Shown here: positions 1 to 64,000 of the stretch, in pieces
Layout of the letters: each line of letters opens with the position of its first letter
Position numbering within the stretch: the first letter of the stretch is position 1
From: Raillietiella orientalis
Lineage: Eukaryota
DNA: 64,000 bases
Reading direction: 5' to 3'
Assembly (NCBI GenBank): GCA_036172245.1
Contig: JAYWIR010000034.1
Location: 2,232,001 to 2,296,000, forward strand
The notes under the pieces: model-generated
What the model saw: only the letters and a program-made list of their open reading frames with translations
Told to the model about the DNA's origin: nothing
Database searches by the model: none
Program-made: the position numbers and the translations under genes

Positions 1-69
1 GTACCCTGGAGGGTAAATGGGGCAGCTGGGTCCAATTCTCTGCAGTCTTCCCGAGGGGGACTAATAGGT

Positions 70-3000
70 TTATCACCCAGTCACCCCGGGACGTTTATTA
101 TAAAAAATAAACATACGTGTGTAGGGCAGTCGTCTCCGTATTGTCCGAAAATGCTCGGAACCTTCCGAGTAAGCGGCACGCGGGCCGGAGAGGTTCGCCT
201 CGGAAGCGGGAGGGGAGGGGGGCAAGGGCGCAAACGAAAATGAAAACAAAAACAAAAAAACACTATATACAAAAAATTGGGAGCGTAAGGGAAGGGATTA
301 CTGTCCTCTGGAGGGTCTCATCCCCATCCTTTCCAGAATGCTGGCAAGTTTCCTCAGATATGTCTCGGGCGGGGCCATCTCGGGCTGCCGTTCTCATGAA
401 GCGCAGGGTGAAGCAGATGACGCTCCTAGCGCGCTGTCCTCTTCTCGCGTAGCTCCAGGTCTTCACAATCCCTCGTAGGCAGCAAAGAGCTGCTGGGATC
501 CGGCAGGCGAAAGGGCATCGGGCACGAACAGGTAATTCATCAAGTCCCTAGCATTGTTCGTCAGTGCACCAAGGGGTGTTGCATAACGCAACCACAGGAG
601 CCGGAGGGCAACACAGTCTACAAGCAGGTGCGCGAGGGATTTCCGTTCCCCGTACCTGCAGCGGTTGGGATCCACAGTCCCCCAAGTCCAGTGAGACCAG
701 CGGGCGTTGCACGGGAGACCCCAGTGCAACCGCAGAAGTGCCGACTCCTGCCACTTTAGGGGGAGGACTCGGTTGTTCTTCAGCGCTTATGGCCACTCGA
801 GGTCATTCTGTAAAATTCCCAGCAGCTCACCCTAGCTCAATTGGTCACTTGACGTCGAAGCGTCCATGAGCTAGCCCGTGGTACAACCACCTAATTCCTT
901 CGTCCGAAGACCTATTTCGCAACTCTCTCGTTTGGCAGACTGGTTACTGCCCAATTGCTTCCTGAGGGACAACAGTGCCACGGTTAGGGAGGTTCTTTGC
1001 GCTCATGCGCACGTGGTTGGCTGCATGATGATGTCCTGCAGCGAGCGGTTGCTGTAGAAGGAATGCAGTAGTCGCTGCCGCATCTCCAGGCTCGCTTCTT
1101 TGTTCTTGACTCATGTGAGAACGGTTTGCTGCAACCAGGCACTACCGCTCGCGGTCCGGCAGGGAAGCTACTTCGGGTGTCTTCCTATCGCTTCGAGCGT
1201 ATCTCCACGGAGAGGCGGGATGCCAAACTACCTCTGCGACTGCCTCTCTACGTGAAAGCCCGTCGCGCTCGAAGAAGCGTCGCAGAGCAGGTTCGGGAGC
1301 AACGGAGTCAGCTCCCGTCACCCGAGAGGAGGAGGCTGACTCCAGCGCCTGAGGTTCCCTGAGGACATCAAGCAGCGGGTGCGGGAACAATTCGACAATC
1401 TCGCACCTGGAATAGTTATCCTGGAAACGACCGGAAGCCCAGTGAAGAAAGATCATCACCCGGTTTTTCGTTTTTCCACCTGACAGAGAGGGTCGAAGGA
1501 TCCATGCTAGGGGCAGGGACCACCAGTTTCGCAAGGGACACGTCGAAGAGTCTTCCCCGTCGAAGCAGTCCTTTAGTCGTGACCGTAGCGTGGCAGCGTC
1601 GACCGGCTCGCTTGTGCTCCGGCCGTCTTGGAGTTTGGCCACTCCAGCAATGCTACGGAAGAACCTCCGACCTTGTCGATTAAATGCTGCCGTCGCTTTC
1701 TCTGGGGGAAGGCAGCGTTGCAGCAGGCGGTCTGGGTCTCTTCCTCGGAGTACTGCAGCGGATCTTCCAAGGGGATGCTATGCGGACTCATCAGCTCCTC
1801 AAAAGGGCGAAACGGATTGCACTGGGAGTAGAGGGATGCATGGACAATGACGATCGACTGTGGGCCACATCGAGCGATGCGGCCCACAGTTTGCATCCTA
1901 AGGCAATCGGTAATCGCAATACCCGGTGCACAGCTGACGTCAGCCGTGCTTTTCCAGCGGAGTCATGACAAAGGACAGTCTCTTCCTTGCACGTTCTTCA
2001 CGAGATCGATGCCCGTGGACCCATGGAAGCGGATTGAACAGGAGCTGAGGGAAGCTGGTCAGCCATTCCTCTCATCCCCTAAAGAGCAAAAGCAAATTCC
2101 AATTCTTTTCAAGGAGAAGAGTATTTTTTTTCTTCCTGCCCTTGGAGGGCAAGAGACGTGGCTCAAAAGACAAAACTCCTGCGCCCGCTCTGCCCTGAAT
2201 CATTTTCCGTGAGGTTTCACTTCCGGTTCCCTAAAACAAAACTGAATATTTGATGACTCCAGCTTCGCAGCTTCCTGTCAGCTAACGGTTCGTGCTAGAT
2301 GCACGGTTACAGCATTTTTCATGAGATCTGCTTTCGATGGAACGCGCTCCGCATTTCAGCATCTGGACCTAGAGTCCTTCTTACTCGGGCTGCATTACGA
2401 TGCGAACCTCAGCGCTAACGCGAGGTTCCAGACAGTTTCCGATGCTGTGGAGATGCGGCAAGTCGAGCAGGTTGCCACTTGGCCGAGTACGAGGGAGATG
2501 CAGGATGCCCGCGAGACCGTGTCCCCTTGTCGGTGAGGGGGCGAATTAACTTAATTAAATCATTTCCCATTTTATAGTGAGGTTTACAGCCCTCGTTGGG
2601 CTCCCGACCACGTGATGCAGGCCGTAATGCTCGGGAGTTCATCTTTTACGAGCCACTCTATCCGCAGGCACCGGGAGAGGCCCTTTCGCCGCAAAGCCGG
2701 AGGGGCAGCTCGCACTAGAGGGGAGCGCAGGAGGGGGTCTGCTCCGATGTTTTCGCATGTCGGAGGCTCGAGATCAGTTCCTCTGTGCTCGGAGCGCACC
2801 CCAGGCAACGCGCCTCCCCCACCAGGGGTTCCAGTCGTCCTCTCGAAAGAAAGTGCGGCCATCGGAACGTTCTCCGCGGATGCCCTCCCTGGTGAGGGCC
2901 GCCACCGGCAATGGAAGGGTCGCTCCTTCTCCGCTTCGCTGCCGATCCGGAAGTGCTGATTCGCGGTCGCATCAGCAAGTCCAGTGACCTCTGGCGCGAG

Positions 3001-19049: not shown

Positions 19050-19836
19050 GCCAAAGGGATTCAGCAGAAGCGAGCTTGCTCGAGATGGTTTGGATTCTCT
19101 GAGTACCTCAAGAACCGTAGCGTACCTGGCGGCACACGCAGTGCTTCAACACGGTTCCACTTTACCCGAGAATGCGCGGGACTCTGGTCCCTATTCTAAC
19201 GCATAATTCTTCAAGCTAGGGGGTACCTCGGGAGAGGACCACCTGTGAATGAAGGAAGGGCTCGGAGTCCGTTCTTCTCACGCCTGGGGAGGGATCTCCA
19301 AAGGGAACCTCCACCCTGGTTGTCTCCGAAGGAAACCTCGAAGGAAATCTCCTTCATTATTCTTTCCGGAGGATCCCTGGGGGGATCTGCTCCATTCTTT
19401 CTTCTCAGGAAGGAAGCGCTCCCTGTTTCCTCCTCCTCTGAAGAGAATCCCTAAGGCGCGCTTCCGAATGTTTTCAGGAGGGGTGCTTCCCGAAAGGAGC
19501 AGCGCGCTTCTTTGCAATCTGAAGGAGCATCATTCCTCTACCAGCTCCATGGAACGAGACGAAAGGCTCCCTTCGAAGGAGGGATCTGCACCTTTGCAGT
19601 ACCAGAGGGGAACCCTGAAGACGAGCAAACTCCTTGATTCCTGGAAGAACTCTGGAAGGTCAACTTCCAGTCCCGGCCAGTAAACGGGCTGTTTCCACCA
19701 GTGCCGCACCTCAAGCCTTCAGCCTAATCTGAGTTATCTTTCAGGAGGAACTCGGAGTCGATCCTTTCCCGGATTCGAACCAGCGACGCCTGGTGCCACG
19801 CGCGGAGACCGTGACTGCGTGGCCTCCGACAGGGGC
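19050..19836 (-). mobile_element. tRNA-headed structured module, copy C (SINE-like)
   Basis: Head GTCGGAGGCC...GCGCGTGGCACC..GGTTCGAATCC (19770-19830, minus); body and tail are homologous to 27378-28380. Confidence 0.8.
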
Positions 19837-21118: not shown

Positions 21119-21357
21119 AGGAGGAGGAAGAGGAAGGAGGAAGAAGAGAAAAGAAGGTGAAGGTAAGGTGTGCAAGGAAGAAGGAGGAAGTGAGAAAGAG
21201 GTGGAGGTGGAGGAGAAAGGCTCTTGGGAAGGGAGGAAGAAAAAGGAGGTAGAGGTGGAGGAGGAAGGAAGAAGGAGGAAGAGGAAGTGGAAGTTAAAGA
21301 GGAGGAGGAGGAGAAAGTGAAGGTGGAAAGGAAGAGGAGGAAGGAAGAGAAGGAAAG
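21119..21357 (+). repeat. Polypurine (GAGGAA-like) low-complexity tract
   Basis: Near-pure G/A run of ~240 bp; the Glu/Lys-rich and Phe/Ser-rich ORFs over it are by-products. Confidence 0.9.
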
Positions 21358-25649: not shown

Positions 25650-27350
25650 TAGTGATGGTGATGTATGGTGATGAATTTGTGCAGTGATATAGTTTGAAAC
25701 TGCTCTCCCAGAAGGGGATGTAGGATGGATGAAAAGCTTCAGAGATTCGTTGAAGACACAAATAGGCAAGTTTCGAATTTGTCTTTTCTCATCCAGGTGA
25801 AGATCATGATAGAATGTCCTTTAGAAGACTGGAGGTTCGAGTTTGTGAAGTATGGGAGATGAACGGTACGCAACCCCTTCCCACAGAGGCTGAACCCTTT
25901 CCTCACTTAACAGCGCTAAAAATGAGTCTGCCATAGCGTTTCCGCTGCAGGATGAAACAGGGAGGAGGCATCAACGTCAGATTCCGTCTTTGCAACTGAA
26001 AAAGATTCATTGCTTAAAGAAACTGATGCTGAGATGTGCACTCTATAGGAATAAATAAGTATGCTATTTCTCAGGATCTACTTACTATATATACCATACA
26101 CCTGGTTACTATACACCGTGATGTGATAAGCACTCACAAAGGAAGAGTAGGAAAGCAGTCGTTTCTAATGAGATTTCCGACCAGCTCGTAAAGGCATGGT
26201 CAACTGCAGGTCAACTGCACCTTGACATGGAAACCGTCCTTTTATTTTCGAGGTTCAAAGAAGTGGGATGCTTGCTCTTAGAAAAGTAGGAAGATGTAAA
26301 GTTCCAGACCACAGCAGAGTAGTAATGCATGCACACCATGTTTCCATGTTTCCGTCATCCCAATTATACGGAAACTTGCAGAGGTTCTGGATTTAGGTTC
26401 GAACTGCAAAGTTCTTCTGAGGTTCGTTCTGCGATGTGTTCTTGTAATTCAAGATATGTTCAATCCTTATCCGAGTATTTAACGGCCGTATATGTGGCAC
26501 GATTTTCATTTATGAATTTGCAGCCTGTGAATTACTGATACACATGCCGTAATATCAAATTGGACTCTGGACTATGCAGACATACACATATGGAATCTTC
26601 TGAATTCTGCTTTGAGTCTCTGTTCCTCATGATTTAATTTCGAATCGGGATAAAGAGCTTAGAGAAAGATTTGCGATTTACTAATGGACATTAATTTTCG
26701 TCTCCAGCATGCAATTGAAAAGGCTTTCAAGGTATGAATATATTTGAAAGAATATATTTGAAATATTACAGGAGATTCACATTCTTTCCATTATCCTTGA
26801 ACTGGATCGTAGACGATGGTGTGGGGAACTATCGTGATGCTATGCAGGGAACAGGGCACTCTTGGAGCAGAGCGTTCCAAGAGTGCCTGCCAGTCATATA
26901 TCTTCGGATTCCAATAGAATTTCGTAGAGATGTGTTGAACCATTGCTCCCATTCAGCACTTAACGCTTAACGTCTAACTCATTCTTGTCGATCTTCAAGA
27001 CATTTTATGCAAGTGCTTCGGAAATTTCATGGCAACAGATATGGTTACTGAGCATCGCACTACATTCGTAGCCCCTTTCTTGTATAAATGTTTTCAAGTG
27101 GAACACACGACTGGTCATCTAGGTTTCCTAGAAGCCACTCGAGTGGGCTTAACATGGTTTGCATTTTGCCGAAGGCAGCGTCCTGCAATGGGAAAACACG
27201 CTGTCCTCATTGAGGACCTTCGCAGACATTGTTCTTTCGAAGGATATGTTCTCAGTGAGTGGGCGTTCCCATGCAGTCGAAGTCTTCATGCACCTAAACA
27301 GCAGCTTGGGCACCAGAAAAGACCCAGCCACGTTGGTGGTGCTTGCTGGT
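25650..27350 (+). mobile_element. Decayed LINE RT, ending at module copy A
   Basis: QSLSEYL (motif B-like, ~26460), LDYADI (TATGCAGAC at 26573-26581), CLPVIYLRIPI (LPVKYLGIP-like, ORF 26734..26970), PSHVGGA (P...GGLG-like, ~27330). Confidence 0.5.
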
Positions 27351-27377
27351 ACGAGCGCGTCGGAGGTCTTGTGGTTT

Positions 27378-28380
27378 GCCCGCGTCGGAGGCCTTGTGGT
27401 TAAGGCTTTCGCGCGTGGCACCATGCGTCGCGGGTTCGAATACTTCGACAGAAACACTGCGTCGTCGGGTTCAGAGTTTCTCCTGCAATGGCGCCGGTTG
27501 GCCGAGACATTCGGGCGTGGCACCGGCGGTGGATAAAGCCCGGAGGTCCCCGATGAAGGCCGGAACAATGGGAATCAATCTTCGGGTCCTCTCAGGAATC
27601 AAGGAGTGGGGATTTCCCTCTCCTGTCGTGCAACGGAGAGGGGACTCCCCCCACCGCAGGACCCCTCCGGTTTCAAGATGGAGCAGGTGCCCGTGAGGGC
27701 ACCTCTCCAGTTGTTCAAAGGAGCGGACCCCTTCCACCCCCCCTCCCTGTTGGGGGGTCCCTCCGAGTCGTCGCCTCTTCACAGAGTGCAAGGAAGCAAG
27801 CGAGAGAGATTCCCTCTGGGAAGCTGCAGCGCCCCTTCTGAATTTCGGAAGCGTCCCTTCGGGTTCTCTTCAGAGGAGTGAATAAAGGAGCGGTTCCCTT
27901 GCGGGTTCCCTCCGGAGAAGAAGTTCCTACAAGCGGATCCTTTCCGGGTTCCCTTCGGAGAAGAAAAAATGCAGAGGACCACCCCCCTCCCAGGGGGTGC
28001 CCCTCCGGAGAGAATGAGGAAGGAGATTCCCTTCGGGGTTCCCCTTCGGAGACAACCAGGGTGGGAGGTGCGATCCCCCCCGTCCGGGGGGATACCTCCC
28101 CAAGCGTGAGAGGAACGGACTCCGAGCCCTTCCTGGATTCATAGGGCGGACCCCCATCCCGGGATGCCCCCTATCCTGAAGAATCACACGCCCCCCTGCG
28201 GGTTGCCGCGGGCGGTGAGGCGTGGAAACAAAACAGTGTGTTAATGTTTAAAGAGCCACGTGCGCCGCGAGGCACGCGACCGGCTCTGAGGTACTTAACG
28301 AACCAAAAAAAAGGAAACTCTTAAAAAAAAAAGCTGAAAGAAAAACAGCGAAGACAGAAGAACCCAAGGATTTCCATCGT
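27378..28380 (+). mobile_element. tRNA-headed structured module, copy A (most complete; SINE-like or LINE leader)
   Basis: A-box/D-arm GGCCTTGTGGTTAAGGC, B-box GGTTCGAATAC (27433-27443), many hairpins, five ~43-bp units at 27851-28057 and an A-rich tail at 28305-28345; five further homologous copies occur in the window. Confidence 0.85.
27389..27443 (+). promoter_or_regulatory. Internal RNA Pol III type-2 promoter (A and B boxes) in a tRNA-derived head
   Basis: AGGCCTTGTGG resembles TRGCNNARYGG and GGTTCGAATAC resembles GGTTCGANTCC, at tRNA-like spacing; a B-box-like sequence is present in five copies. Confidence 0.65.
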
Positions 28381-28399
28381 CGAGCGCCACCGACGTGGC

Positions 28400-30150
28400 C
28401 GTTTCGGTTTGACTGTGCTGCGGAAACAGCTGGTCTCTGGTTTCCAAGTCCAAATGCATGCTGTCCCTGCAGCCGAGGAACGCAATGTTCTCGAGTCATC
28501 ATGTTCTCAGAGCTTCAAGCAGAAAATGAAAAGTTTCAGAACTCTCCGGAATCAGCAAGGAGCCTTGTGTTCCTGCTATGAGAATACGGTTCACGTGGCA
28601 CGGAGGGCTGCTTCCAATGGGTTAACGGTGATTTTCTGCAATAGTCATCTTTCGGGTCGAAATTTCAGTTTGCTTCTGCTATCTCTATCGTGGAGAGTAT
28701 TCCTTTTTTTTTTTTCTTCGTGCCATGGCGGGACACGGAAGATGAATCGAATCCCTGCTTCCTTATGCAACATTCAAGTCTTTCTCTCCCTTCCACGCAC
28801 AACTTTCCAGGGCGGAGCAGGAAATCTCTTTTTTTTTTTGTAGCTATACTGCTCACAGGAAGAACCCTTCCTGAGATACGGCGTCTGTCTCTTTCCTTCA
28901 GAGCGATTACCCGCCTTCTCGAGAATTGAAGTCTCCGAGAACTCACCTTGCAAAGTCATCCACTTGGGTCAAACTTTGATCCTCCCGCGTTCACAGGGGG
29001 CTCACAAACTGATTGATGCACACGGCGTGTGCCGTGTTCACCAGCAGCATGCAAAGCAGAACCGTTGCTTCTGAAAAGGTTATCGGGAGGGGGATGCTCC
29101 CCAAAAGATCTTTTGGTGCATTTTAGCGAGAAATAACAAAGACAATGGTAGCAAGATTCTTCTGGCATGGTATCTGCACGCTCCTGCGACCGGAAAGCGC
29201 CTTCATCTGAGATCAGATTTCATTAGCTCTGGACCGGTTTGTAGAAACTGCCAAACTGTAAAATGGCCGCTGAGCAGGTGACTCTTAACCCACTTGTCGA
29301 CTACCGCGTTCCTAACCTGTGGAAGCATAAACCGCGCTGTGACTATTTGACTCCAATGCCCCACGATTATGATCCGGAACTTGCAGCGAGCGAAGGCGAA
29401 ATTTCCGGGGTTTAAAAAAACGGCGGCCCCTCAAACCGTGAAAGCGAGACCACAGTGGAGGCTCAGCTCGGGAATCTTCCCTCTCGGGATGATCCCCAAG
29501 TGCGATGTATGGAGTCTTGTGGATGAAGATCCAAATGTCATCGCGCGAACATCACGCGTTCCTGCAAGCTATTTTCACCATTTTTTGTTGTTTCATTCAG
29601 CACACACTCGGTGAAATGCACCCAGATTGGGTGTCCACATGGCAGTCTTTCCAAATCTTCTTTCCAAGTCTCTCCTTGTGTTCTCCTGTCTTTCGATGTT
29701 TCGTTTTTTTCTCTGGTCGCAGTTGCTGTTATGAGTTCCGATCTATTCTCTTGCTTGAGCATCTTATGGTCATGCCTTCGCTGAAATGTCTTCGGGTAAA
29801 ATCTACATAACAGCGTGGTTGCTCAAGAGACCAAAATACTGTCGAATTTTGACTCGTAGCCCATGAAACCAATGCATTAAACTCGAAAATTCGATTCTGC
29901 TCAAGAAGCTGTAATCTGCAGCGTGGATCACAAAGTGATTTTCATGGACTAGAGTGCATTGAGAGTACTGCACATGTACCGAATGCTCAGGTGGTGAGCT
30001 CCAGGAATTTCCGGCTCCATTCTGAGGATGAGGGATTTCCAAAGCAACTTTCCTGTAGGAGTTTGCGGTTTCTGAAGGTGAGGCTTCCGACAGCTGGAGG
30101 CTGCACACGATCAAAGGTTCGTTCTCTTCCTTCCACGTTTTATCAGTTTG
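28400..30150 (-). mobile_element. Decayed LINE endonuclease (and possibly ORF1) remnant
   Basis: VLGDFNS at 28922-28942 on the minus strand, the diagnostic APE GDFN motif; extent is approximate. Confidence 0.45.
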
Positions 30151-32479: not shown

Positions 32480-33064
32480 TTCCCACCCGGTCACGCAGGG
32501 GCGTTCATTTAGCGAAAAAAAAACCAGTTGGGAACGCGCAGTTCCCGCCAGGAGGCAAAAGGAGTTCAGGGAAAGGGTCCACCGACGCTCAGGTCGAGAT
32601 ATCTGAAAGTCCGGAGCGGGAGGAAGGGGAATGGAGGCAACAAAAAAAAAAAAATTAGGAGTTAAGGAAGGGATGAGGCAAGGGTCTTTGGTGTCGCTCC
32701 GTATGCACCGGAATCAACACACAAAAACAGGGAAAGTTGCAGAGCGAAAGGGAGTAGGGAACGAGAGAAAAACAAAATGAATACAGGGTGCTTGGGGATA
32801 AGGTCGCCGGTATCGGCCATTCCTTCACTTCAGAACCGGCGCTGGATGTCAGCGATCTTAACCTTTACCCCTCCTTCGAGATGAGGCCACCTTGCAGCCT
32901 CCTTCATGTAGGCAGCAGCAGCCTTCGCTGCGTGGCCGTCTCGAGCACGTGGCAGGAGCCGTGACGATGGCACGGATGCAACCGTTGATTGCCATCATCA
33001 CGCCAGTCGAAAGTCTGGCACGAAGCAGCTGCCGCAGATCGCGGGCGGTATCCTCCTGGTACAA
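32480..33064 (-). mobile_element. LINE family B 3' tail (ORF2 end, UTR, terminal motif) joined to module copy B
   Basis: GGAGGATACC...GACTTTCG and GCCGGTTCTGAAGTGAAGGAATGG match 45912-46162; terminal motif AATGAACGCCCCTGCGTGACCGGGTGGGAA at 32480-32509. Confidence 0.7.
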
Positions 33065-33998
33065 GAACGCTGTTTTCTTTTCTTTCTTTTTTTTTTTTTT
33101 CTTCGGGTTTTCTTTTTTTTGGTTTGCTAAGTGCGCCTCAAGAGCTGGTCGCATGCCTCGCGGCGCACGTGGCTCTTTAAACACTGTTTTGTTTCCACGC
33201 CACTACGCCTGCGGCAGCCCGCAGGGGGACGTGTAAATTCTTCAGGATAAGGGGCACCCCGGAATGGGGGTCCGCCCTATGAATCCAGGAAGGGCTCGGA
33301 GTCCGTTCCTCACATGCTTGTGGAGGGATTCCCCCCCGGACGGGGTGGATCGCACCTCCCACCCTGGTTGTCTCCGAAGGGGAACCCCGAAGGGAATCTC
33401 CTTCCTCATTCTCTCCGGAGGGGCACCCCCTGGGAGGGGGGTGGTCCTCTCCATTTCATCTTCTCCGAAGGGAACCCGGAAAGGATCCGCTAAGTAGGAA
33501 TTTCTTCTCCGGAGGGAACCCGCAAGGGAACCGCTCCTGTTCACTCTGAAGAAAACCTCGAAGGGACGCTTCCGAAACTCAGAAGGGGCGCTTGCAGCTT
33601 CCCAGAGGGAATCGCTCTCGCTTGCTTCCTTGCACTCCGTAAAGAGGCGACGACTCGGAGGGTCTCTCCCCGCAACAGGAGGGTCCGCTCCTCTGAACAA
33701 CTGGAGAGGTGCCCGTGAGGGCTCCTGCTCCATGTTGAAACCGGAGGGGTCCGCTCTCCGTTGTACGATCGGAGGGGGAACTCCCCACTCCTTGATTCCT
33801 GGAAGGACCCGAAGGTCGACTCCCATTGTTCTGGCCTTCATGGGGGGCCTCCGAATTAATCCACCACCGGTGCCACGCCAGCGCCATCTTGCAGGAGAAA
33901 CTCGGAACCCAACGATGCAGTGGAGTCAGTTTCTGCCGAAGTATTCGAACCCGAGACGCATAAGGCCATGCGCGGAAGCCTTAACCTCCGAAGCGGGC
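33065..33998 (-). mobile_element. tRNA-headed structured module, copy B
   Basis: The reverse complement aligns end to end with copy A; B-box at ~33941-33951. Confidence 0.85.
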
Positions 33999-33999
33999 G

Positions 34000-34400
34000 C
34001 TGTACAAGAGCGCTGAAGGCAGCCTTTGCCACAGTTTGTGGAGGGCCTCTCAGTCCAAAGGCAGGTGCAGCGGGATCGATCTCTGCCGACCTGCCGCAGT
34101 TCGAGGATGCAGCTACCCTAGAGACGAGATGGAGGCACTCAATGCACTGGAATCCCCAGCGCAGAATGAGACACAGATGTTGGGAGGGCGGGGGGGATCA
34201 CGAATTCCTCAGGGACAATACCCAAAGCTCGCTTCACCGAAGGAGTCCCGTCGCCAGAGTACGCGGAGTGGCAGCATCCACTAATTCGCGCGTCTTCCAG
34301 CCGCCAAGGAGTTTTGCGTTTCCTGCGATGGTGCAGGAAAACTCGCACCTCGCCGGTAGGCTCTTGTCGTTTCTTGCCCTGAGGGCGGGCAGCACTGCGG
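34000..34400 (-). pseudogene. Possible second DIRS-like RT fragment
   Basis: PAFGLRG peptide and matching DNA shared with 16250-16270. Confidence 0.3.
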
Positions 34401-34402
34401 CA

Positions 34403-34432
34403 TTACCACCCGGGTACGCCGGGGCGTTTATT
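34403..34432 (-). other. 30-nt LINE 3' terminal stem-loop motif (copy closest to consensus)
   Basis: AATAAACGC-CCCGG-CGTAC-CCGGG-TGGTAA. Confidence 0.75.
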
Positions 34433-36649
34433 AAAAATTCTCAATAACGGCGAGGGGTGTGGCATCAGCCAGGGTCGACCAGTTGACCACTTTGCCGTGT
34501 TCTGCATCATCACTTCCAGAGGTAGGGTGAAAAGTCGTGCAGGGGCAAAGTTTTTCCGGACGCATCTTCTGGAATGCAGTCCAGACTCAACAGCCTCCTG
34601 CCTCCAGGCATTGGAGTTTATTGGGCGGTAGAAGATCCATCGATAGGATTCCATTAGGCAGAGAGTTGTCTCAGGGAGAAGCCAAATCCACGCATCCTGT
34701 ACTGGGTGCTGAGCAGCAACGAGAGCAGTCCTTCGCCGCCTGCGTTTGCTCCGAAGGATGACGCGTGCAGGTGCCCAAAACGGGAAAGTCCACAGCTTAG
34801 CGAGAGTGTCAGCATTTGGAATTGCACCTCTTCGAGAGTATCAATTAGGAGAGAAAAAAAACTTACTTACTCATCAATGAAGAAGGTTCCAACCTGAAAT
34901 GCAGAAACTCATGGAACAAGGAGATGCATCATCTTACCACTGGGCAAATCAAAAAAGGCAATCGCTGAAAGCAAGCTGTCTGAGAAGCAGATTGTAATGA
35001 TGGTTATCGAGGCAACAGCAACTCCTACTGCAAGAATGGACAGACGGCGACCTAAGCAACAGCAGAGCAACACTACATAATTGGCTGCTCCATCCGTGTA
35101 CAGCATTCCAAGTACGTGTCGCTCCTAAGAATTACTTGCATTTCGTAGATGTGTTGCTTCCTGGATTAGGGACCCACGCGTACCTGGTCGCAATATGGGG
35201 TCCACGGAACGTCATTCTTCCTTGATTATCTGTCTTATCCACGCTAAAAGCACATACGTGCTAACTTGGCCACATATGTGGATCACAGACTTTTATGAGA
35301 AATAAGGGCCCGGCGTAAAGCGGCCGCTTTCTATAACTGCGTGTTTATTTGTTTTAACAGTTTGTTCGGAATGCAATGCATAACCGTCTCTCGGAGGCAG
35401 AATTCCTTGGGGGCTGCTCCTATTTACTGAAATTTTCATTTTTGTCGCTAAAGTTACAGACTGCCCTTGATCATCTGCAACTGAATAAGGTGAAACAGTG
35501 GAAGGCGTCAAAAGATCCGTTTGCAAAGTGCCGCCATAGATGGAAGCGATGGGAGGAGTGAGCGATTCCAAAAGAAGCGACCCCTCCGTGTCGACGCTTT
35601 CTGAATGTTTGACACGCCTCACTCTGCCGTGTATGTTCACATGGAAAATGATGTGAACATACACGTGAAAATCCTGTCTAAGCAAAGCTCCCGCAGAGCA
35701 ACATCGATACTTCCGAGTCCAGCTCCAGATGCCCACGTGAAACAGGTGCCGAAGAGTGCCCAGCTTCTGTTTTTCTTCTCTTGTAGAAAACTCCATAATT
35801 TACCCTGTGAAAATGTTGTTTATCATACATGCGCCATATATTAATACATTCTTTCTTTATGTATCGATGCACGCTATATTAAATAATGTTCTCAAGGCAT
35901 GAGCATTCTATACGTTTTTGTGATCTATGCGTGCATCTTCCATGAAATATGCTGAGAAGTTGTCATAAGCTGGAAAGAGTTGGTTGTCGTAGGGGAAAAT
36001 TTCACACTTAGCAGAAAAGCCCTAGGAATGCTCGCTTGGATGCTGAATTCTCCATGACAGCGAAAAGATAACATAAAATTGTAGTTGAGAGGGAATTTTC
36101 CTAGGAAATGTTCGACGCTTTATAGAGCAGCAGCCCATCTTCCTTTCACATGGAAGTTGTGCTTTCTATTTGAGAGGCAATGCAGACTACAAAGAAGCAC
36201 CATCTTCCCCTACATAATGAGTGCTTGCCGTCATCCAACAACCAGAGATGCACTACAGATCTTCAAACAGCACCCAAAACGCGCACTCCTGATTTCTTTG
36301 TTGCTGTCTGCTGGTGTGTTTGGACCAATCCATTTCCAATCTAAAGGTTTTTGGAGTTCAACTGGAGGAATAATAGTTCGAAAACAAATAATGCAAACGT
36401 AATAAGATCGAATGCGGAAGATTCGTCTGTCTGAAGCAATGAAATCCGTTTGAAGGAAGAAATGCATCCTTCAAGAAGAATTCGTCACAGAGAAAGCCAT
36501 TAAAGCCAATGGCTTTCAAATGTGGCAGCACTTTCTGCTCCTCAAGATTACTTTCAAAACAGTTAGTATACAACGAAAATAACGCAATACATCTTCCTGT
36601 CCCCCCAGTGAAAAGAAGAAAGCTCCATTCTGCAAGGCGGTAAGATCAG

Positions 36650-38690: not shown

Positions 38691-38720
38691 GAGGTTTGTC
38701 ATTCGGATTTTCCGGGGCAT

Positions 38721-38780
38721 TTATTATAAAAAATCACTTATTATATAAAATATTTATTATATAAAATTTATTATATAAAA
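38721..38780. repeat. Four tandem TTATTATA(TA)AAA units
   Basis: Units start at 38721, 38738, 38754 and 38768. Confidence 0.9.
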
Positions 38781-39638
38781 TAACAGTCGTTTATATCAGA
38801 GATTCATGGCAGAACATTTGGTTATACCACGCGCGAAGGACTTGCCAAAAACCGGTACGCAGACCGGTGAGGTCCGTTCTATCGGCGAAGGGGGAGGGAA
38901 AACCACAAAAAAGAACAAAAAATAAAAGGCAGTGGGAGGGGGGTGTTTTGTGGGAGGGGAGGGCGGGGAAGGGATTACTGCTCTCCTGGAGACGTCTTCT
39001 GCATCCTGTCTAGGATGCTGACAAGTTCTGTGTTTCGATCTAAGTGGGAGCCATGGGGAGGCGATCTTCAAGAAGATTCTTGCCCAGTGGATGGCTCTCC
39101 TGCTATTTTGACCCCTTCTGGCGTTCTAGCTTGCTACGATTCCGCGCACACAACAGAGCACTGCCAAAGGCGCAGCGGGGGGCAAGGCGTCACGCATGAA
39201 GAGGCGCGGAAAATGTTCTTCGGATCGCCCCCCGGGATTTTGAGGATCAACGAGAGTCGATTCCAAAGGACACGGAGGGTGTCATAGTCTATTATGATAT
39301 GCGGGAAGGTTTCCCTTTCTCCTCACTTGGCAAAATGGGCATCCACGCTCTCAAATGCCCAATGGGAGAGGGATGCTCTGCATGGGATCCCCCCAGTGCG
39401 ACAACAGCAACGCCGTCTCTTGCCACTTCAAGGGAAGGGTGCAACTGTCCCAACACGCTGGGAGCCACTTTACCTCCTCCTGAGGTAGTGCAGGCAGCTC
39501 GCCCCAGCGTACATATCCTTTAGGAGGGATATTCGGGGTCGCAGTGTCCTCTAGCTGCCGATTTGTCCACGCGCTTAAAAGTTTTTTTTTGCTTTGGATA
39601 CGGCAGGATGCTTCCCATCTTGTCAGGAGGTCGCTGTC

Positions 39639-40265
39639 CTAAGGGTTTTTCAGGGAGGGCAGCATTAAGGCAAGGGGGTGTGGATGAGACCAACAGTAGT
39701 TTGCGGTCTGGGTTGCACACGATCTCCCGCAGGGACTGTCGAGCGAACCTCCCTTTTCGAAGGCAGGCAGGTGCATTCCTCCTCGCTCGAGCCATGGGTC
39801 TTTCCTCATGCGGAGACTGACTCCTGAAGCCAGGAAGTGCAGTTCGCGGGGAGATCCAGCGTTCTCCTGCACCAAGGCAACCATTCGACGCAACTGACGG
39901 TCATATTGCCTCAGGCTGGTATCGATGGCCACGAGGGTCGAGGTCAATCCTTCGCAGCCAGTCGCTCTTCTGGTGAGGAGCCGTGCAGACGCACACCAAG
40001 GCGTATTCCATAGCTGCGAGGGCACGAGGGCGAGTCTTCTGACCTGGAGCTGACGCTCCATCCTCTCCAACGTAAGGAAGCCCAGTCCACCATCCCTACG
40101 CGGAACATACAAGTCTTCTAAGCGAACTCGGGACCTCCCTGTGCCCCAAAGGGCTTTGTTCAGGAGGTCTTCGGTTCGTTTTTTGATGTTGGGTGGGAGG
40201 GGCAAGCAAAAACCAGGGGACGGGGGAGGTGGCCGCAAATAAGTTCCATACCGCGACCCGTTCCC
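39639..40265 (-). pseudogene. Best-preserved LINE ORF2 segment (post-RT GGLG region)
   Basis: About 200 open codons containing LLNKALWG...VRLEDLYVPRRDGGLGF; the annotated ATG lies in the inserted module head and is not a real start. Confidence 0.8.
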
Positions 40266-40635
40266 GCCTGCGTCGGAGGCCATGTGGTTACGGGATCTCC
40301 GCGCGTGGCACCACCAAGGGTCACGGGTTCAACTACGAAAGAAATCGATGCACTGCGTCGTGGGTTCTAGTTTCTCCTGCAAGATGACGCTGGTTGGCCT
40401 ACATTCATTCGGGTGCGTCACTGTTAGGGTTCAAACAGGATGCCCCTGATGAAGGCCGGAATAATCGGAGTCGAACTTTGGGTCCTTCCACGAATCAAGG
40501 AGTGGGGAGTTCCCCTTCCAGTTGTACAAGGGAACCCCCGAATGTGGGGATCCTCCCCAGGTCGCGCTTACGGAGTAGATGTGTAGCCACCTCTCCAGAG
40601 AGCTCACAGCTGGAGGGGAGTCTCGAAGGAAAACG
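40266..40635 (+). mobile_element. tRNA-headed module copy D (3'-truncated)
   Basis: GCCTGCGTCGGAGGCCATGTGGTTA...GCGCGTGGCACC...GGGTTCAA; homologous to 27378-27710. Confidence 0.8.
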
Positions 40636-40871
40636 GACTCCTTGATTTAGTTCCTGGAAGGATTCTGATACCGGTCACTCATCAGGGGACATCCAGTTGT
40701 AACCCCCACCGGTGCTGCACCCGAATAGAGGCCAACCAGCGTCATCTTGCAGGAGGAACTTGAACCTGCGACGCACCCCCATCTCTCGGCGTCGATTCTT
40801 TCCGAGTATTCGAACCCGCGATGCCTGGTGCCACGCGCAGAGACTGCAACCATGTGGCCTCCGACGCAGGA
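40636..40871 (-). mobile_element. tRNA-headed module copy E (3'-truncated, inverted against D)
   Basis: Reverse complement reads CCTGCGTCGGAGGCCACATGGTT...GGGTTCGAATAC...GGTTCAAGTTCC...CAAGGAG. Confidence 0.8.
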
Positions 40872-44119: not shown

Positions 44120-45100
44120 AAGACCTTCACGACTGACGTCGCACCAAAAAGAATAAGATTCGTCGTCGCCCGGGGAGACCAGCTACGCGCAAGAAAATTG
44201 ATGGTCTGACATTGGCACCTTCCACGTTCAGCTGTTCAAGGGAAAACACGCGTGGTCCATCTTGAAGACATGGGGAAAGGGAACAAACAAGAGGGAAACA
44301 AGATAAAATAAACAAGTGCATGTTAAAAAGGGTTTTTGGTGAGGCTTCGGAGAAGGGTCGCGCTGTGTCCCGAGACTCCCTGCTCACCCTCTGCAGGATG
44401 CTTGAAAGTTGCGTCCGAATGCTGCCCCTGTTGGGACCATCTCGTGAAGAGCTCCACCCGGTGGATGACCCCCCCTGCCTGTGCCAGCCTCTTCTTGCGG
44501 CGTTCCAGGACGGCGCCATCCCGCGAAGACAGCAATCAGCAGCTGCCAGGGATACGCGGCTGGTGGCAGTGCAGAACGCACAAAGATGCGTTTGGTCACG
44601 TCCCTGGGACTGGTCTACGGGATACACAGGGCCGATGAACGTTCCCAAAGAGGTCAGAGGGCAACGTTGTCTGCAAGCAGGTGATGGAGAACGAATTAGG
44701 CATGGTCAGCTGCTGTACAGATTAGTCAGCAACAGCTTGCACTAATACCGGTCTTCCCCATCCGGGCAGTTTGGGTGCCACTTCTGCTATCCTTGGACTT
44801 GACTGCAACTGTTCAAGCAAGGTGGTTTGGTGTTGGTGTCTACCGAGAAGGGTTCTGCCACAGAAACGGCAGTGTTTGCATGCTTGGGCATCACGGACTG
44901 GAGTGACAGCTCAAGCCATCAATATAATTTTTTGCACCCAATTTGAAATTGACAAAAAAAAAAACGCACTGAGACCACAGCCACATGTTAGCGTTGGCGG
45001 CTGCAATGAGAAATGGGGAGGTGCATCATGAGTTTCAAGTTTCACCCACTGGATGACGCTGGCTGGCCTGAAGGCTTCGGGTGCAGAACTGGTGCAATCG
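44120..45100 (-). mobile_element. Older family A-like LINE 3' part
   Basis: LHHLLADNVAL*PLW (~44645-44690) matches HLLVDCVALRLLW; T-rich UTR at 44280-44315. Confidence 0.55.
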
Positions 45101-45149
45101 GATGCTCTCACTGACTGGCCTCCAGCCTCCTTCCAGGTACTAAGGAGTC

Positions 45150-45715
45150 AGTTCCCTTCGGAACCTCCTCCGGCTGTAAAAATGTTTCCGTACCATGGAC
45201 ATGGACGATGTCCCCTTCTGGGAGCACAGGAGAGTTCCAGAGGCATGTTGCTCCCTTCGAGGAGCGACCCCTCTGAAAAATTGGGAAGCTTTCCAGTTTG
45301 GGATTCTCTTCAGAGGAGAATCTTCAAAGGGGGAGAGAAGGAGGGGTTCCCTTGCGGGTTCCCTTCAGAGAAGAAAATAAGGAGCGGTGCCCTCTGGGGG
45401 GTCCCTCCGGCTAGAACAAGGAAGCGGTTCCCTTCTGAGATGCCTCCCAAGAGTAATAGGGGCCGACACCTTCCTCCGAAGCCCTTCCTAGATTCGCAGA
45501 GTGGTTCCTTCGGGGTTGTCCCCATAACTTCAAGAGTCCCACGCACCCTTTGGTGGCGTGGACTCTTCAAGTTAGATCCCTGAGGAGGCGGACGGCCCTC
45601 TTTAAGGACCAAAAAGGAGGGAAAATCTGGAAGGAAAGCAGTGAAAACAGAAGAATCCCAAAGGATCCCCTTGTTTAGTAGATGTCGGAAATCCCAAAGG
45701 ATTTCCTTCATCCGT
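45150..45715 (+). mobile_element. Module copy F (headless, diverged)
   Basis: GGTTCCCTTGCGGGTTCCCTTCAGAGAAGAA, GCCCTTCCTAGATTC and ACAGAAGAATCCCAAAGGAT match 27893-28372. Confidence 0.7.
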
Positions 45716-50691: not shown

Positions 50692-52380
50692 TTGACACTT
50701 GGTCACACCGGGGCGTTTACTTATAAAACTAACATACATGTCTGTGGCAGGACGTTTGATCCTGTCACTTTACTTATAGCTACGAGAGGGAACCTGCCGG
50801 GATCTGGCACGCAGGCCAGCGGGGGTCGCCTCAGGGGAAGGGGAGACAAACAAAAAGAAAAACATAAAACAAAAAACATAAAGTCAAAAAAATGGGGGGT
50901 TCGGGAAGGGATTACTGTATCCTGCTGGGCGTCCTCTGCATCCTTGTAAGGATGCCAGCAAGTTTCTGTTTCAAGACTCCCAGATGGGGCCATCTTGACG
51001 TGATCTTCATGAAGAGAACAGCGTCCCTGTCGTTCTGGCCTCCTTTGGCGTTGCTCCATGCAGCCACGGTCCCGTTGCATGGGCGGCAGAGCGTTGCCAG
51101 GGATGTGGCCAGCCTGAGGGCGTCGCGCAGGAAGAAGCCCTTCAAAACGTCTCTGGTGTTGCCACCGGGGATTCCCAGGGTCGCGGCAAAGAGTTCCCAG
51201 AGGAGCCGGAGGGCAACACAGTCCACTAGGAGGTGCGGGAGAGATTTCCGCTCACCGCATCTTGCACTGTTTGGATCCTCCCCCCTCTCCCCTCCACCCC
51301 GGGTCCAGTGAGACCAGCGGACGTTGCACGGGAGACCCCAGTGCAACAGCAGAAGTGCCGACTCCTGCCACTTTAGGAGGAGGTCCTGGCTGTTCTTCAG
51401 TGCTGGGGACATTCAAACGCTACGACCCCAGCTGCCCCAGTGAAGGGACTATTTCGCTGAGTTGAGCTACTGAGAATCACATAGGAAGTTCCCGAGTGTT
51501 GCCCAGCGCTGATGAACAACCCAACCCACGCCCTGAAGTGGCAGGAGTCGACACTTCTGCTTTGCACTGGGGTCTCTTGTGCAACACCCACCAGCATCAT
51601 TGGACAATCATTGGACGGACAATCCCAGGGATGTGATGAAGGGCCTTTTCGTGCCCGATGTCCTTTCGCCTGCCGTATCCATAGAAGCTTTTTTGCTGCG
51701 TAAGTGGAATTGTGGCAGTCTGGAGCTACGCGAGGGAGGATGGTGCGATAAAGGCGCCATCTGCTTCGCCCTGAGCTTCATTAGGACGGCAGCTAGATGG
51801 CCCCACCCGAGACATATCTGAGGAAACTTGACAGCATTCTGGGAAGGATGCAGAGGAAACCCTCCAGCGGATAGTGATCCCTCCCCTAACCCTCCCAAAT
51901 TTTTGTATATAGTATTTTTTTATTTTCATTTTCATTTTTATTTCCCTCTCCCCTTCCGCTGCCGAGGCAACCGTCGCCAGCCAGTGTACAGTTTACTCGG
52001 AAGATTCCGTGCATTTTCGGACGATGTAGGGTCGATGACCCTATACATATATGTTTATTTTTTATAATGAACATCACGGAGTTACTGGATGATAATCCCT
52101 ATAACTTGAAGAGTTAACACGCTCCCTCGGGTAGCTTGGGCAGCGCCAGGGCGCTTCGTGATCCGCGCATGCCTTCAACAGCTACAAGAGCTGCCAGAGG
52201 TGTCCCCATCCGCACACGTAAAGACGCAGTACGGATTTTATCCGCATCGTAAAAGTAGCGTTCGGAAGATGGAGAATCGTCTATCGGAGACAACAAGTAC
52301 CAGCTTTGGAGTCGCAATTGTTCTCGGATCTGATACCAAGAAGAGATCGGGCCGTAATTCCAAAAGGGGGCATCCGCTCA
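50692..52380 (-). mobile_element. Family A LINE 3' part, split by a nested copy
   Basis: ORF 50912..51412 contains the zf-RVT; terminal motif at 50692-50721; 52100-52380 resembles 39500-39770 (the upstream continuation). Confidence 0.75.
51455..52095 (+). mobile_element. 5'-truncated family A LINE 3' end nested antiparallel, zinc-finger core deleted
   Basis: Closely matches the reverse complement of 70-840; terminal motif at 52066-52095. Confidence 0.85.
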
Positions 52381-63400: not shown

Positions 63401-64000
63401 GGTGGTTCGGTGCATCAGAATGACAGAGTTTAGAAAGAGGTATCGACAGCAACATTTCCAGCTTTACCGATCACTTCTGTGATGCGATGGGGAACACTGT
63501 TCATCCGTTCTCTTATCTTTTTGAAATTCCCGTTCCTCTCTCCTATGAAAGTGCTTGAGAGCATTTTTTGTGTACTGTTGTTAGGGGCGTTTCTTTTAGG
63601 TGTGTTGGAAGATTTCGTTGCCTCCACCGATCAATCAGAAGAGAAAACAAATCCCAAACGAAATGAAAAGTAACGAAATATCTCAAGGATCGCGTCATCT
63701 GGCATCAAGTGGTCCCAAATAGCCGTCATAGAGCTGTCTCCCCAAAGGGTAGCCAGAGACAGCAGCCCACCGGCCGATAGGAGTTTTTCTACAGCGTTGC
63801 AGGAGCGACCAAACACCTGGGAGGCTGGAAGTCGAGAGAGCTGGCGGACACCGGCACTTCTCGTTCCAAGCCGAAGGAATCTTCCTCTGAAGATCTCGTA
63901 GTTCCTTTCCTGTGTGTGGACACTTCGGTGTTTTCCACAAAGTGCACTGCTGTTTCTTCACTGGAGCCATCAGTGCAATTCGCAAAGACATCTTGCTTCA

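What the first reader, a model, noticed from the sequence alone, without database searches (positions are those of the whole stretch)
27378..28380. Kilobase-long tRNA-headed, hairpin-dense RNA module repeatedly coupled to LINE bodies
Seen: six copies (19050-19836, 27378-28380, 33065-33998, 40266-40635, 40636-40871, 45150-45715). Five keep a tRNA-like head with a Ser/Leu-type D arm (GGCC..GTGGTTAAGGC) and a B box; copy F is headless. The body is ~850 nt of stems, several closed by UUCG or GNRA loops on the head strand. Copy A has no TTTT run. Three copies continue directly into same-strand LINE sequence at different points: B into the ORF2 end, UTR and terminal motif (a ~1.5 kb unit, 32480-33998), F into the zinc-finger region, and C into EN/RT remnants. 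Established: tRNA-SINEs often borrow partner-LINE 3' tails but are usually a few hundred nt long. Inference: this is either an unusually long structured SINE that recruits LINE tails, or the Pol III-driven 5' leader of an autonomous L1/Tx1-like family whose internal-deletion derivatives are seen here. The second case would be unusual.
Basis: partly seen in the sequence, partly recalled or inferred. Interest (0 to 1): 0.8.

Follow-up and report, generated by a model that had tools for sequence, protein, structure and literature searches.

The report
Long SINE-like repeat, no LINE link
This is an old, decayed family of roughly 1-kb mobile repeats with a tRNA-like start and an A-rich end, most likely an unusually long SINE, and the claimed fusion to LINE genes is not there.

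Summary
A (27378-28380, +) and B (33059-33998, -) are near full length. C lacks the tail, D and E are 5' parts only, and F is headless.

The unit has four parts: a ~70-nt head with A-box-like and B-box motifs, a GC-rich body holding a degenerate array of ~43-nt hairpin-forming sub-repeats, a templated A-rich tail, and in A and F a short terminal motif. B is flanked by a 13/14 direct repeat. The flanks of the copies are otherwise unrelated. Contigs from two other sequencing runs carry the same unit.

No reverse transcriptase, endonuclease or zinc-finger domain was found next to any copy or anywhere in the window. The LINE coupling is therefore not supported.

The head is tRNA-like only at motif level: ARAGORN, Rfam and folding all fail to see a tRNA. 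Hairpins are dense on both strands and show no covariation.

Best reading: a dead, unusually long SINE-like retroposon family.

The parts
27378..28380 (+). Copy A, near full-length unit (head, body, A-rich tail, terminal motif)
   Evidence: nhmmer profile 1-1018. Contigs of two other runs lie on 27378-28381.
27353..27377 (+). Partial tandem duplication of the first ~24 nt of the head, just upstream of copy A
   Evidence: Read from the sequence. It resembles 27379-27403.
27384..27449 (+). tRNA-like head of A. The A-box-like motif is at 27389-27399 and the B box GGTTCGAATAC at 27433-27443, so the box starts are 44 nt apart.
   Evidence: No tRNA call by ARAGORN or Rfam and no cloverleaf in the MFE fold. 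The box consensus sequences are recalled.
27505..27524 (+). Second copy (85%) of the head segment 27403-27422, 102 nt downstream; a possible quasi-dimeric head
   Evidence: the repeat finder family D6.
27846..28055 (+). Degenerate array of ~43-nt sub-repeats, each a short GC hairpin followed by CC(T/C)TCGGAGAAGAA
   Evidence: the repeat finder D1 and D2 with spacing 42-43. A unit profile finds 4 clear units in A, and fewer in C and F.
28305..28360 (+). Templated A-rich, purine-rich tail of A
   Evidence: The tail aligns with those of B and F.
28363..28375 (+). Terminal motif CCCAAGGATTTCC, shared with F (45694-45706, 1 mismatch)
   Evidence: A3-F3 local alignment, z 5.5.
33059..33998 (-). Copy B, near full-length, with an 8-nt gap in the A-box-like part. 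It ends in the A-rich tail.
   Evidence: nhmmer profile 1-1017 and alignment.
34002..34015 (-). 5' flanking direct repeat of B (CAGCGCTCTTGTAC)
   Evidence: 13/14 match to 33059-33072. 2 of 20000 shuffles reach it.
33059..33072 (-). 3' flanking direct repeat of B (CAGCGTTCTTGTAC). Its first 5 nt also match the tail of A, so the duplication is 9-14 nt.
19089..19835 (-). Copy C, an older copy with a head (B box GGTTCGAATCC), fewer sub-repeats and no A-rich tail
   Evidence: nhmmer profile 2-947.
40266..40606 (+). Copy D, 5' part only (profile 1-347)
40584..40870 (-). Copy E, 5' part only (profile 2-277). It converges tail-to-tail on D.
   Evidence: D-E 73% over 202 columns.
45022..45715 (+). Copy F, 5'-truncated and headless, with the tail and terminal motif
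   Evidence: nhmmer pieces 45263-45419 and 45385-45666, plus a weak piece at 45022-45157; sequence.

Best explanation
The module is a family of non-autonomous retroposons of SINE type, about 925 nt plus a ~80-nt A-rich tail. All copies seen here are old and dead.

Inferred mechanism: a source copy is transcribed from the internal A-box and B-box-like promoter in the tRNA-related head, probably by RNA polymerase III. The near absence of T4 terminators on the sense strand would allow this. The transcript, with its templated A-rich 3' end, is then reverse-transcribed at a nicked target by the enzyme of an unidentified partner LINE. That process leaves a target-site duplication and, in some copies, a 5' truncation.

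The long body is not a designed RNA fold. It is a minisatellite-like array of degenerate ~43-nt GC-rich palindromic units, grown by internal duplication, whose number differs between copies.

Shown here: the repeat family, its limits, the motifs, the sub-repeats, the direct repeat around B, and the absence of LINE coding sequence.

Inferred: Pol III transcription, retroposition, and dependence on a LINE.
For: - **Six copies on both strands with common limits**.
- **Unrelated flanks.** The 5' flanks are unrelated: all 10 pairs score z<2. In the 3' flanks, 11 of 15 pairs score z<2. The four higher pairs are the D/E pair (each is the other's flank), the A/F pair (z 5.5, the shared tail motif), A-B (z 5.1, a T-rich low-complexity match) and B-F (z 3.8, 21/26, probably chance).
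- **Direct repeat around B.** A 13/14 repeat abuts both ends of B; 2 of 20000 shuffles reach it.
- **Tail.** A, B and F (3 of 6 copies) have an A-rich tail.
- **5' truncation.** F keeps its 3' end but lacks the head, as target-primed reverse transcription tends to produce.
- **Promoter-like motifs.** The B box is exact or near exact in 5 of 5 heads, with the A-box-like motif starting 44 nt upstream of it.
- **Few terminators.** There are 2 TTTT in 3771 nt of sense strand over the six copies, against 7.5 per kb in the window.
- **The unit exists elsewhere.** 97 contigs of run X1 and one 955-nt contig of run X2 lie on 27378-28381. The X2 contig lies on 27394-28312 over its whole length. 78 of the 97 X1 contigs lie only partly on the stretch. 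Loose ends behind 28345 run into other sequence. Several X1 contigs skip 76-184 nt inside the sub-repeat zone.
- **Non-coding.** A-B substitutions fall 18, 15 and 20 by codon position, and gaps are not multiples of three.
- **Sub-repeat array**.
Against: - **No tRNA is detected in the head.** ARAGORN finds 0. Rfam finds nothing at E<=10 in 4 of 4 heads searched. None of 5 heads folds as a cloverleaf. SINEBase states that A and B boxes are only an indication, not proof (PMC3531059, passages).
- **Target-site duplications are scarce.** Only 1 of 6 copies has a convincing one. A has at best a 7-nt match, and C, D, E and F have none.
- **D and E are atypical.** They keep the 5' part and lack the 3' part, the opposite of normal truncation, and form an inverted pair.
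- **Length.** About 925 nt without the tail exceeds the 75-662 nt range of the 175 SINE families in SINEBase.
- **TTTT.** Its absence in A is not significant by composition: 40% of shuffles also lack it.
- **No partner LINE** was seen in the window.
- **Copy number** in the genome is unknown, because no genome is held.
Confidence: 0.6

Rival explanations
1. It is a deletion derivative of a LINE (5' leader joined to 3' UTR, no ORFs). It would be transcribed by Pol II or by read-through and mobilised in trans by its parent LINE. The tRNA-like motifs would be incidental or a captured fragment.
For: - The length of ~1 kb is typical of such derivatives and beyond the SINE range in SINEBase.
- The tail is templated and complex and ends in a specific motif shared by A and F. 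This is how stringent LINE 3' ends look.
- No tRNA is detectable in the head.
Against: - No LINE coding remnant occurs anywhere in 64 kb for comparison.
- The A-box-like and B-box motifs sit at the very 5' end at tRNA-like spacing in 5 of 5 heads.
- The sense strand is poor in T4 runs.
Confidence: 0.15
2. It is a DNA-level dispersed repeat, such as a fragment of a foldback or other DNA element or of segmental duplications, and was not spread through RNA.
For: - Hairpins are equally dense on both strands: 35 sense and 42 antisense in A; z -3.5 and -2.2.
- D and E form an inverted pair.
- Another repeat family in the window (R2) also occurs as an inverted dimer.
- Only 1 of 6 copies has a clear flanking repeat.
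Against: - The unit has no terminal inverted repeats (read).
- The unit is polar, with a head at one end and an A-rich tail at the other.
- F is 5'-truncated but keeps an intact 3' end.
- The 9-14-nt direct repeat around B abuts the A-rich tail.
Confidence: 0.1
3. It is the Pol III-driven 5' leader of an autonomous L1/Tx1-like LINE, and the copies here are internal-deletion derivatives.
For: None from the tools.
Against: - None of the 6 copies is followed by a detectable ORF.
- All 170 stop-free frames of 110 aa or more, 413 of 435 frames of 62-109 aa, and 70 of the 87 frames (35-61 aa, in the flanks of A, B, C and F) were scanned. None gave an RT, EN or zinc-finger hit.
- B is closed by a direct repeat at its tail.
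- The X2 contig begins in the head and ends at the tail.
Confidence: 0.03
4. It is a family of functional structured non-coding RNA genes.
For: The sense strand folds better than shuffles (z -3.5). CUUCGG occurs 5, 6 and 1 times on the sense strand of A, B and C and never on the antisense strand.
Against: - Copies are truncated, differ by 17-30% and carry many indels.
- The covariation term is unfavourable, at +7.4 kcal/mol, with 18 of 230 pairs changed on both sides.
- No Rfam family matches.
- The strand bias in CUUCGG stems from duplicated sub-repeats.
Confidence: 0.03

Closest known systems
tRNA-derived SINEs of the head-body-tail type, as defined in SINEBase (PMC3531059; passages read)
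   Same: A 5' head with A-box and B-box-like motifs, a body of unknown origin, a variable A-rich tail of degenerate simple repeats, a flanking direct repeat (copy B), a 5'-truncated copy (F), and no coding capacity.
   Different: It is about 925 nt without the tail, against 75-662 nt in the 175 listed families. The head is not recognisable as a tRNA by ARAGORN, Rfam or folding. Copy number and Pol III transcription are unknown.
CHRS/CHR-2 'quasi-oligomeric' SINEs (described in PMC3531059)
   Same: The body contains a short degenerate motif repeated in tandem, and variants differ in repeat number.
   Different: The unit here is ~43 nt and palindromic with about 4-5 copies, against a ~20-nt motif repeated more than 10 times. 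No sequence comparison could be run.
SVA (SINE-VNTR-Alu) composite retroposons of hominids (PMC3287187; only the abstract start in the search listing was seen; the rest is recalled)
   Same: A kilobase-scale non-autonomous retroposon with an internal variable-number tandem-repeat region and an A-rich 3' end, mobilised in trans by a LINE.
   Different: SVA has no tRNA-like Pol III head and is considered a Pol II transcript (recalled). There is no homology.
ORF-less LINE deletion derivatives such as RIME or SIDER of trypanosomatids (recalled, not checked in any call)
   Same: Size of 0.5-1 kb, non-coding, and a 3' end shared with a parent LINE.
   Different: Those elements share their ends with a known autonomous LINE. 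No parent LINE could be found here, and they lack A-box and B-box heads.

Membership tests
SINE (SINEBase definition, PMC3531059) | Short interspersed, non-tandem repeat: <700 bp in the general definition, <1 kb in the working criterion | tested here: inconclusive
   The copies are interspersed on both strands. The unit is about 925 nt without the tail and 1003 nt with it. This is above 700 bp and the 662-nt maximum, and right at the 1-kb limit.
SINE (SINEBase definition) | [quoted passage not shown] | not testable with these tools
   No genome is held. There are 6 copies in 64 kb, and 97 contigs of run X1 lie on the unit. Neither figure is a copy number.
SINE (SINEBase definition) | Head at least 60% identical to a tRNA, 5S rRNA or 7SL RNA over at least 60 nt | tested here: inconclusive
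   No tRNA bank of the host was available, so the criterion itself was not run. The surrogate tests failed: ARAGORN found 0, Rfam found no tRNA, 5S or 7SL match at E<=10 in 4 of 4 heads searched, and 0 of 5 heads gave a cloverleaf. Only motif-level likeness remains.
SINE (SINEBase definition) | [quoted passage not shown] | not testable with these tools
   The A-box-like motif (27389-27399) and the B box (27433-27443) are present. The paper says boxes are only an indication.
SINE / non-LTR retroposon | Retroposition hallmarks: target-site duplication and an A-rich or simple-repeat 3' tail | tested here: inconclusive
   Met in B: a 13/14 direct repeat that 2 of 20000 shuffles reach. A, B and F have the tail. 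A, C, D, E and F have no convincing duplication.
SINE | A partner LINE supplies the reverse transcriptase, often with a shared 3' end | not testable with these tools
   No LINE coding sequence occurs in the window. The terminal motif occurs only in A and F.
Autonomous LINE (L1/Tx1-like) with this module as 5' leader | Fixed junction of the module to ORF1/ORF2 (RT, endonuclease, zinc knuckle) | tested here: not met
   None of the 6 copies is followed by any Pfam-detectable domain. The 3' flanks are mutually unrelated. B is closed by a direct repeat.
tRNA gene or pseudogene | Cloverleaf recognised by tRNA detectors | tested here: not met

The most novel reading that the evidence does not exclude
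The module is a true Pol III-transcribed, tRNA-derived SINE whose body has grown by expansion of a palindromic ~43-nt minisatellite to almost 1 kb. That would place it beyond the length range of catalogued SINE families, as a tRNA-headed counterpart of SVA. It would imply that Pol III can produce, and a LINE can mobilise, a kilobase-long GC-rich, hairpin-laden transcript. It might also be the first SINE family described for this (unidentified) lineage.
Probability: 0.2. Interest if true: 0.55.

Novelty: new member of a known kind. Interest (0 to 1): 0.3.

Why it matters
If it is a Pol III SINE, it stretches the accepted length range of SINEs. The SINEBase maximum is 662 nt without the tail.

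It would also give a second example, besides SVA, of a non-autonomous retroposon that grows through an internal tandem-repeat array.

In practice it is a repeat family that should be masked and annotated in this genome. The copies here are old, differing from each other by 17-30%, so any effect is historical.

The more exciting idea, a Pol III-driven leader fused to LINE bodies, is not supported.

Tried and rejected
- **Read-through six-frame translation for Pfam.** Stop-free frames were scanned instead. 22 of the 435 frames of 62-109 aa (all of 62-63 aa) were left out, and frames under 62 aa were scanned only in the flanks of A, B, C and F.
- **Weak Pfam rows.** Nine rows appeared, all below their curated cut-offs and none LINE-related: X, Fcf1, BNR_3, Herpes_ICP4_C, DUF3640, DUF591, putAbiC, Hormone_6 and Tat.
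- **Sequencing runs.** Only two holders were listed, each with a share of 0.09, and no RNA holder was listed. This says nothing about expression.
- **Flanks in the laid runs.** When the runs were laid, the window's flanks 26800-27367 and 28433-28900 had no cover. I draw no conclusion from this.
- **Metagenome scans.** Two exact-pattern scans of metagenome contigs with conserved 20- and 25-mers found 0 loci.
- **Earlier findings.** Look-ups by place, sequence and words gave nothing relevant.
- **R2 repeat ORF.** A homologue search with the longest ORF of the R2 repeat gave no hit.
- **Coding test.** The 227-aa open frame on the sense strand of B was tested as a possible coding remnant and rejected.
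- **Upstream motif.** A GGCAAAG-like motif ~38 nt upstream of the heads of B, C and D looked like a leader. Local alignments of the 5' flanks are at chance level.
- **B-F flank match.** A 21/26 match between B's 3' flank and a site 257 nt downstream of F (z 3.8) is probably chance.
- **Head conservation.** The head is not better conserved than the body: 77-88% against 80-97%. This gives no evidence either way about the promoter.
- **Organism guess.** I guessed the window might be coccidian and read passages of PMC4337577 and PMC9141347. Nothing ties the window to those genomes, so the organism stays unknown.
- **Dfam, Repbase, SINEBase.** No search of these is available, so I cannot say the family is undescribed.

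Full report
**Setting**

The window looks like eukaryotic non-coding DNA. GC content runs from 41% to 60% in 2-kb windows. ARAGORN finds no tRNA and Rfam finds nothing at gathering thresholds. No stop-free frame gives a Pfam match above its cut-off. I scanned all 170 frames of 110 aa or more, 413 of the 435 frames of 62-109 aa (22 frames of 62-63 aa were dropped), and 70 frames of 35-61 aa in the flanks of copies A, B, C and F. No whole genome is held and the organism is unknown.

**The observation**

The repeat family is real. blastn of 27300-28420 against the window finds a minus-strand copy at 33078-33986 (83% over 970 columns) and partial copies near 19.2-19.8 kb, 40.27-40.53 kb, 40.68-40.87 kb and 45.26-45.67 kb.

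A profile built from A and B gives the limits:

| Copy | Coordinates | Strand | Profile positions |
|---|---|---|---|
| A | 27378-28379 | + | 1-1018 |
| B | 33998-33059 | - | 1-1017 |
| C | 19835-19089 | - | 2-947 |
| D | 40266-40606 | + | 1-347 |
| E | 40870-40584 | - | 2-277 |
| F | 45263-45419 and 45385-45666 (possibly from 45022) | + | 459-1010 |

Over aligned columns, identity to A is 80-97% for B and 68-85% for the other copies. There are therefore at least a younger pair (A, B) and older copies (C-F).

**Limits of the unit**

- The 5' flanks of the five headed copies are unrelated. All 10 pairs score z<2.
- The 3' flanks are also essentially unrelated. Eleven of 15 pairs score z<2. The D/E pair scores high because each is the other's flank. 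The A/F pair (z 5.5) shares the 27-nt tail end ...AG(C/T)GAA(G/A)ACAGAAGAA(T)CCC(A)AAGGAT. The other two are a T-rich low-complexity match between A and B (z 5.1) and a 21/26 match between B and F (z 3.8), both probably chance.
- B is flanked by CAGCG(C/T)TCTTGTAC at 34015-34002 and 33072-33059, a 13/14 match. Only 2 of 20000 shuffles reach it. The first five letters also match the tail of A, so the duplication is 9-14 nt.
- Two other public runs hold relatives of the unit. 97 contigs of X1 lie on 27378-28381; 2, 14, 30 and 51 of them fall in the likeness classes 99+, 95-99, 90-95 and under 90. One 955-nt contig of X2 lies on 27394-28312 over its whole length.
- 78 of the 97 X1 contigs lie only partly on the stretch. 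Loose ends behind 28345 continue into other sequence. Several X1 contigs skip 76-184 nt within 27610-28323.

**Anatomy**

1. *Head (27384-27449 in A).* It has an A-box-like AGGCCTTGTGG at 27389-27399 inside a Ser/Leu-like GCC...GGC arm. The B box GGTTCGAATAC lies at 27433-27443. It is exact in A, B and E, has one mismatch in C (which makes it the canonical GGTTCGAATCC) and two in D. The box consensus sequences and their usual spacing are recalled, not taken from a call. The start GTCGGAG can pair with CTTCGAC just after the B box (read).
   The head is nevertheless not a detectable tRNA. ARAGORN finds 0. Rfam finds no tRNA, 5S or 7SL match at E<=10 in the heads of A, C, D and E. None of 5 MFE folds is a cloverleaf. 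Instead the first ~30 nt form one long hairpin.
   B lacks 8 nt of the A-box-like part. A carries a ~24-nt partial duplication of the head start at 27353-27377. A 20-nt head segment recurs 102 nt downstream at 85% identity (D6), which hints at a quasi-dimeric head.
2. *Body.* It is GC-rich (59% in A) and full of short palindromes. Its centre (27846-28055) is a degenerate array of ~43-nt units of the form AGCGG-TTCCC-loop-GGGTTCCC-T(C/T)CGGAGAAGAA (D1 and D2, spacing 42-43). A unit profile finds four clear units in A, three to four in B, and fewer in C and F. C lacks about 55 columns there. Looser relatives of the unit occur through the rest of the body (D3-D9).
3. *Tail.* The A/G-rich stretch is templated, since it aligns between A, B and F. 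In A and F it ends with CCCAAGGATTTCC.

**Is it a structured RNA?**

A folds better than shuffles on the sense strand (z -3.53), but so does the antisense strand (z -2.21; 20 shuffles each). Tetraloop hairpins with stems of 4 bp or more:

| Copy | Sense | Antisense | Mean in shuffles |
|---|---|---|---|
| A | 35 | 42 | 19.1 |
| B | 29 | 38 | 18.7 |
| C | 29 | 25 | 14.9 |

UUCG loops number 0, 1 and 0 and GNRA loops 1, 1 and 1 in A, B and C, close to shuffle expectation. CTTCGG is sense-specific (5, 6 and 1 against 0), but it is part of the duplicated unit.

RNAalifold on A, B and C gives an unfavourable covariation term of +7.4 kcal/mol. Only 18 of 230 pairs change on both sides, although three sequences give little power. 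The hairpin density is thus a DNA-level property of a palindromic minisatellite. It is not evidence of a selected fold.

The 227-aa open frame on the sense strand of B is not coding. A-B substitutions fall 18, 15 and 20 by codon position, and gaps are not multiples of three.

**LINE coupling**

I found none. Beside C (16.5-19.3 kb), A (28.3-29.6 kb), B (32.0-33.1 kb) and F (45.6-47.6 kb), frames down to 35 aa give no RT, endonuclease or zinc-finger family. Only chance-level rows below cut-off appear. The rest of the window is equally empty. A protein-level self-comparison of the window shows only this family and two other non-coding repeat families. Very decayed LINE remnants could escape these tests. 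Even so, the direct repeat closing B and the unrelated 3' flanks argue independently against co-mobilised LINE sequence.

**Interpretation**

The polar unit (head at one end, A-rich tail at the other), the direct repeat around B, the 5'-truncated F and the unrelated flanks fit a non-autonomous retroposon. So does the presence of the same unit in other runs. The A-box and B-box-like motifs at the extreme 5' end make a Pol III SINE the most likely kind (0.6). The scarcity of T4 on the sense strand points the same way: 2 in 3771 nt against 7.5 per kb in the window.

Several facts weigh against this reading:
- The head fails every tRNA detector.
- A lacks TTTT no more often than chance (40% of shuffles).
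- Only one copy has a good target-site duplication.
- D and E are 5' parts in an inverted pair, the opposite of normal truncation, and this remains unexplained.

By the SINEBase definitions (PMC3531059, passages read), the length of about 925 nt without the tail lies beyond the 75-662-nt range. Boxes alone are 'an indication, not a proof'. The criteria on copy number and tRNA identity could not be run.

The rivals are an ORF-less LINE derivative (0.15), a DNA-level repeat (0.10), a LINE leader (0.03) and a functional RNA family (0.03).

**Novelty**

All the features are known from SINEs: a head-body-tail layout, internal tandem motifs as in the CHRS quasi-oligomers, and a VNTR-bearing kilobase retroposon as in SVA. 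Only the size is unusual. Dfam, Repbase and SINEBase could not be searched, so I cannot say the family is undescribed. My literature searches were not aimed at this organism, which is unknown. I rate it a new member of a known kind, of modest interest.

Noticed in passing
window 1-870; 50789-51404 (+) with 52098-51463 (-); 38950-39460; 44555-44683: A second non-coding repeat family (R2). Near 51 kb it forms an inverted tail-to-tail dimer with arms about 73% alike. It has no Pfam match, and the homologue search with its longest open frame found nothing.
   Followed up: partly
window 34154-34440; 1512-1664; 39507-39689; 63772-63867: A third short repeat family (R3), seen only as protein-level self-matches. 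It has no consistent position or orientation relative to the SINE-like copies.
   Followed up: no
window 40266-40870: Copies D and E are both 5' parts (profile 1-347 and 2-277) that converge tail-to-tail and overlap at 40584-40606. Together they form a ~600-nt imperfect palindrome whose arms are 73% alike. The origin is unexplained; it could be two insertions or an old foldback duplication.
   Followed up: partly
window 1-64000: No Pfam domain above cut-off appears in any stop-free frame of 64 aa or more across the 64 kb. The window seems to be gene-free or to hold only very short exons.
   Followed up: yes
window 21120-21355 and 38719-38782: Purine-rich (GGAAGA-type) microsatellite arrays, and an AT-rich 14-16-nt minisatellite.
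   Followed up: no
window 27686-27703 versus 33731-33714: The same hairpin in A and B carries loops that are reverse complements of each other (GTGA against TCAC). This looks like a flip of a small palindrome's loop at the DNA level (read).
   Followed up: no
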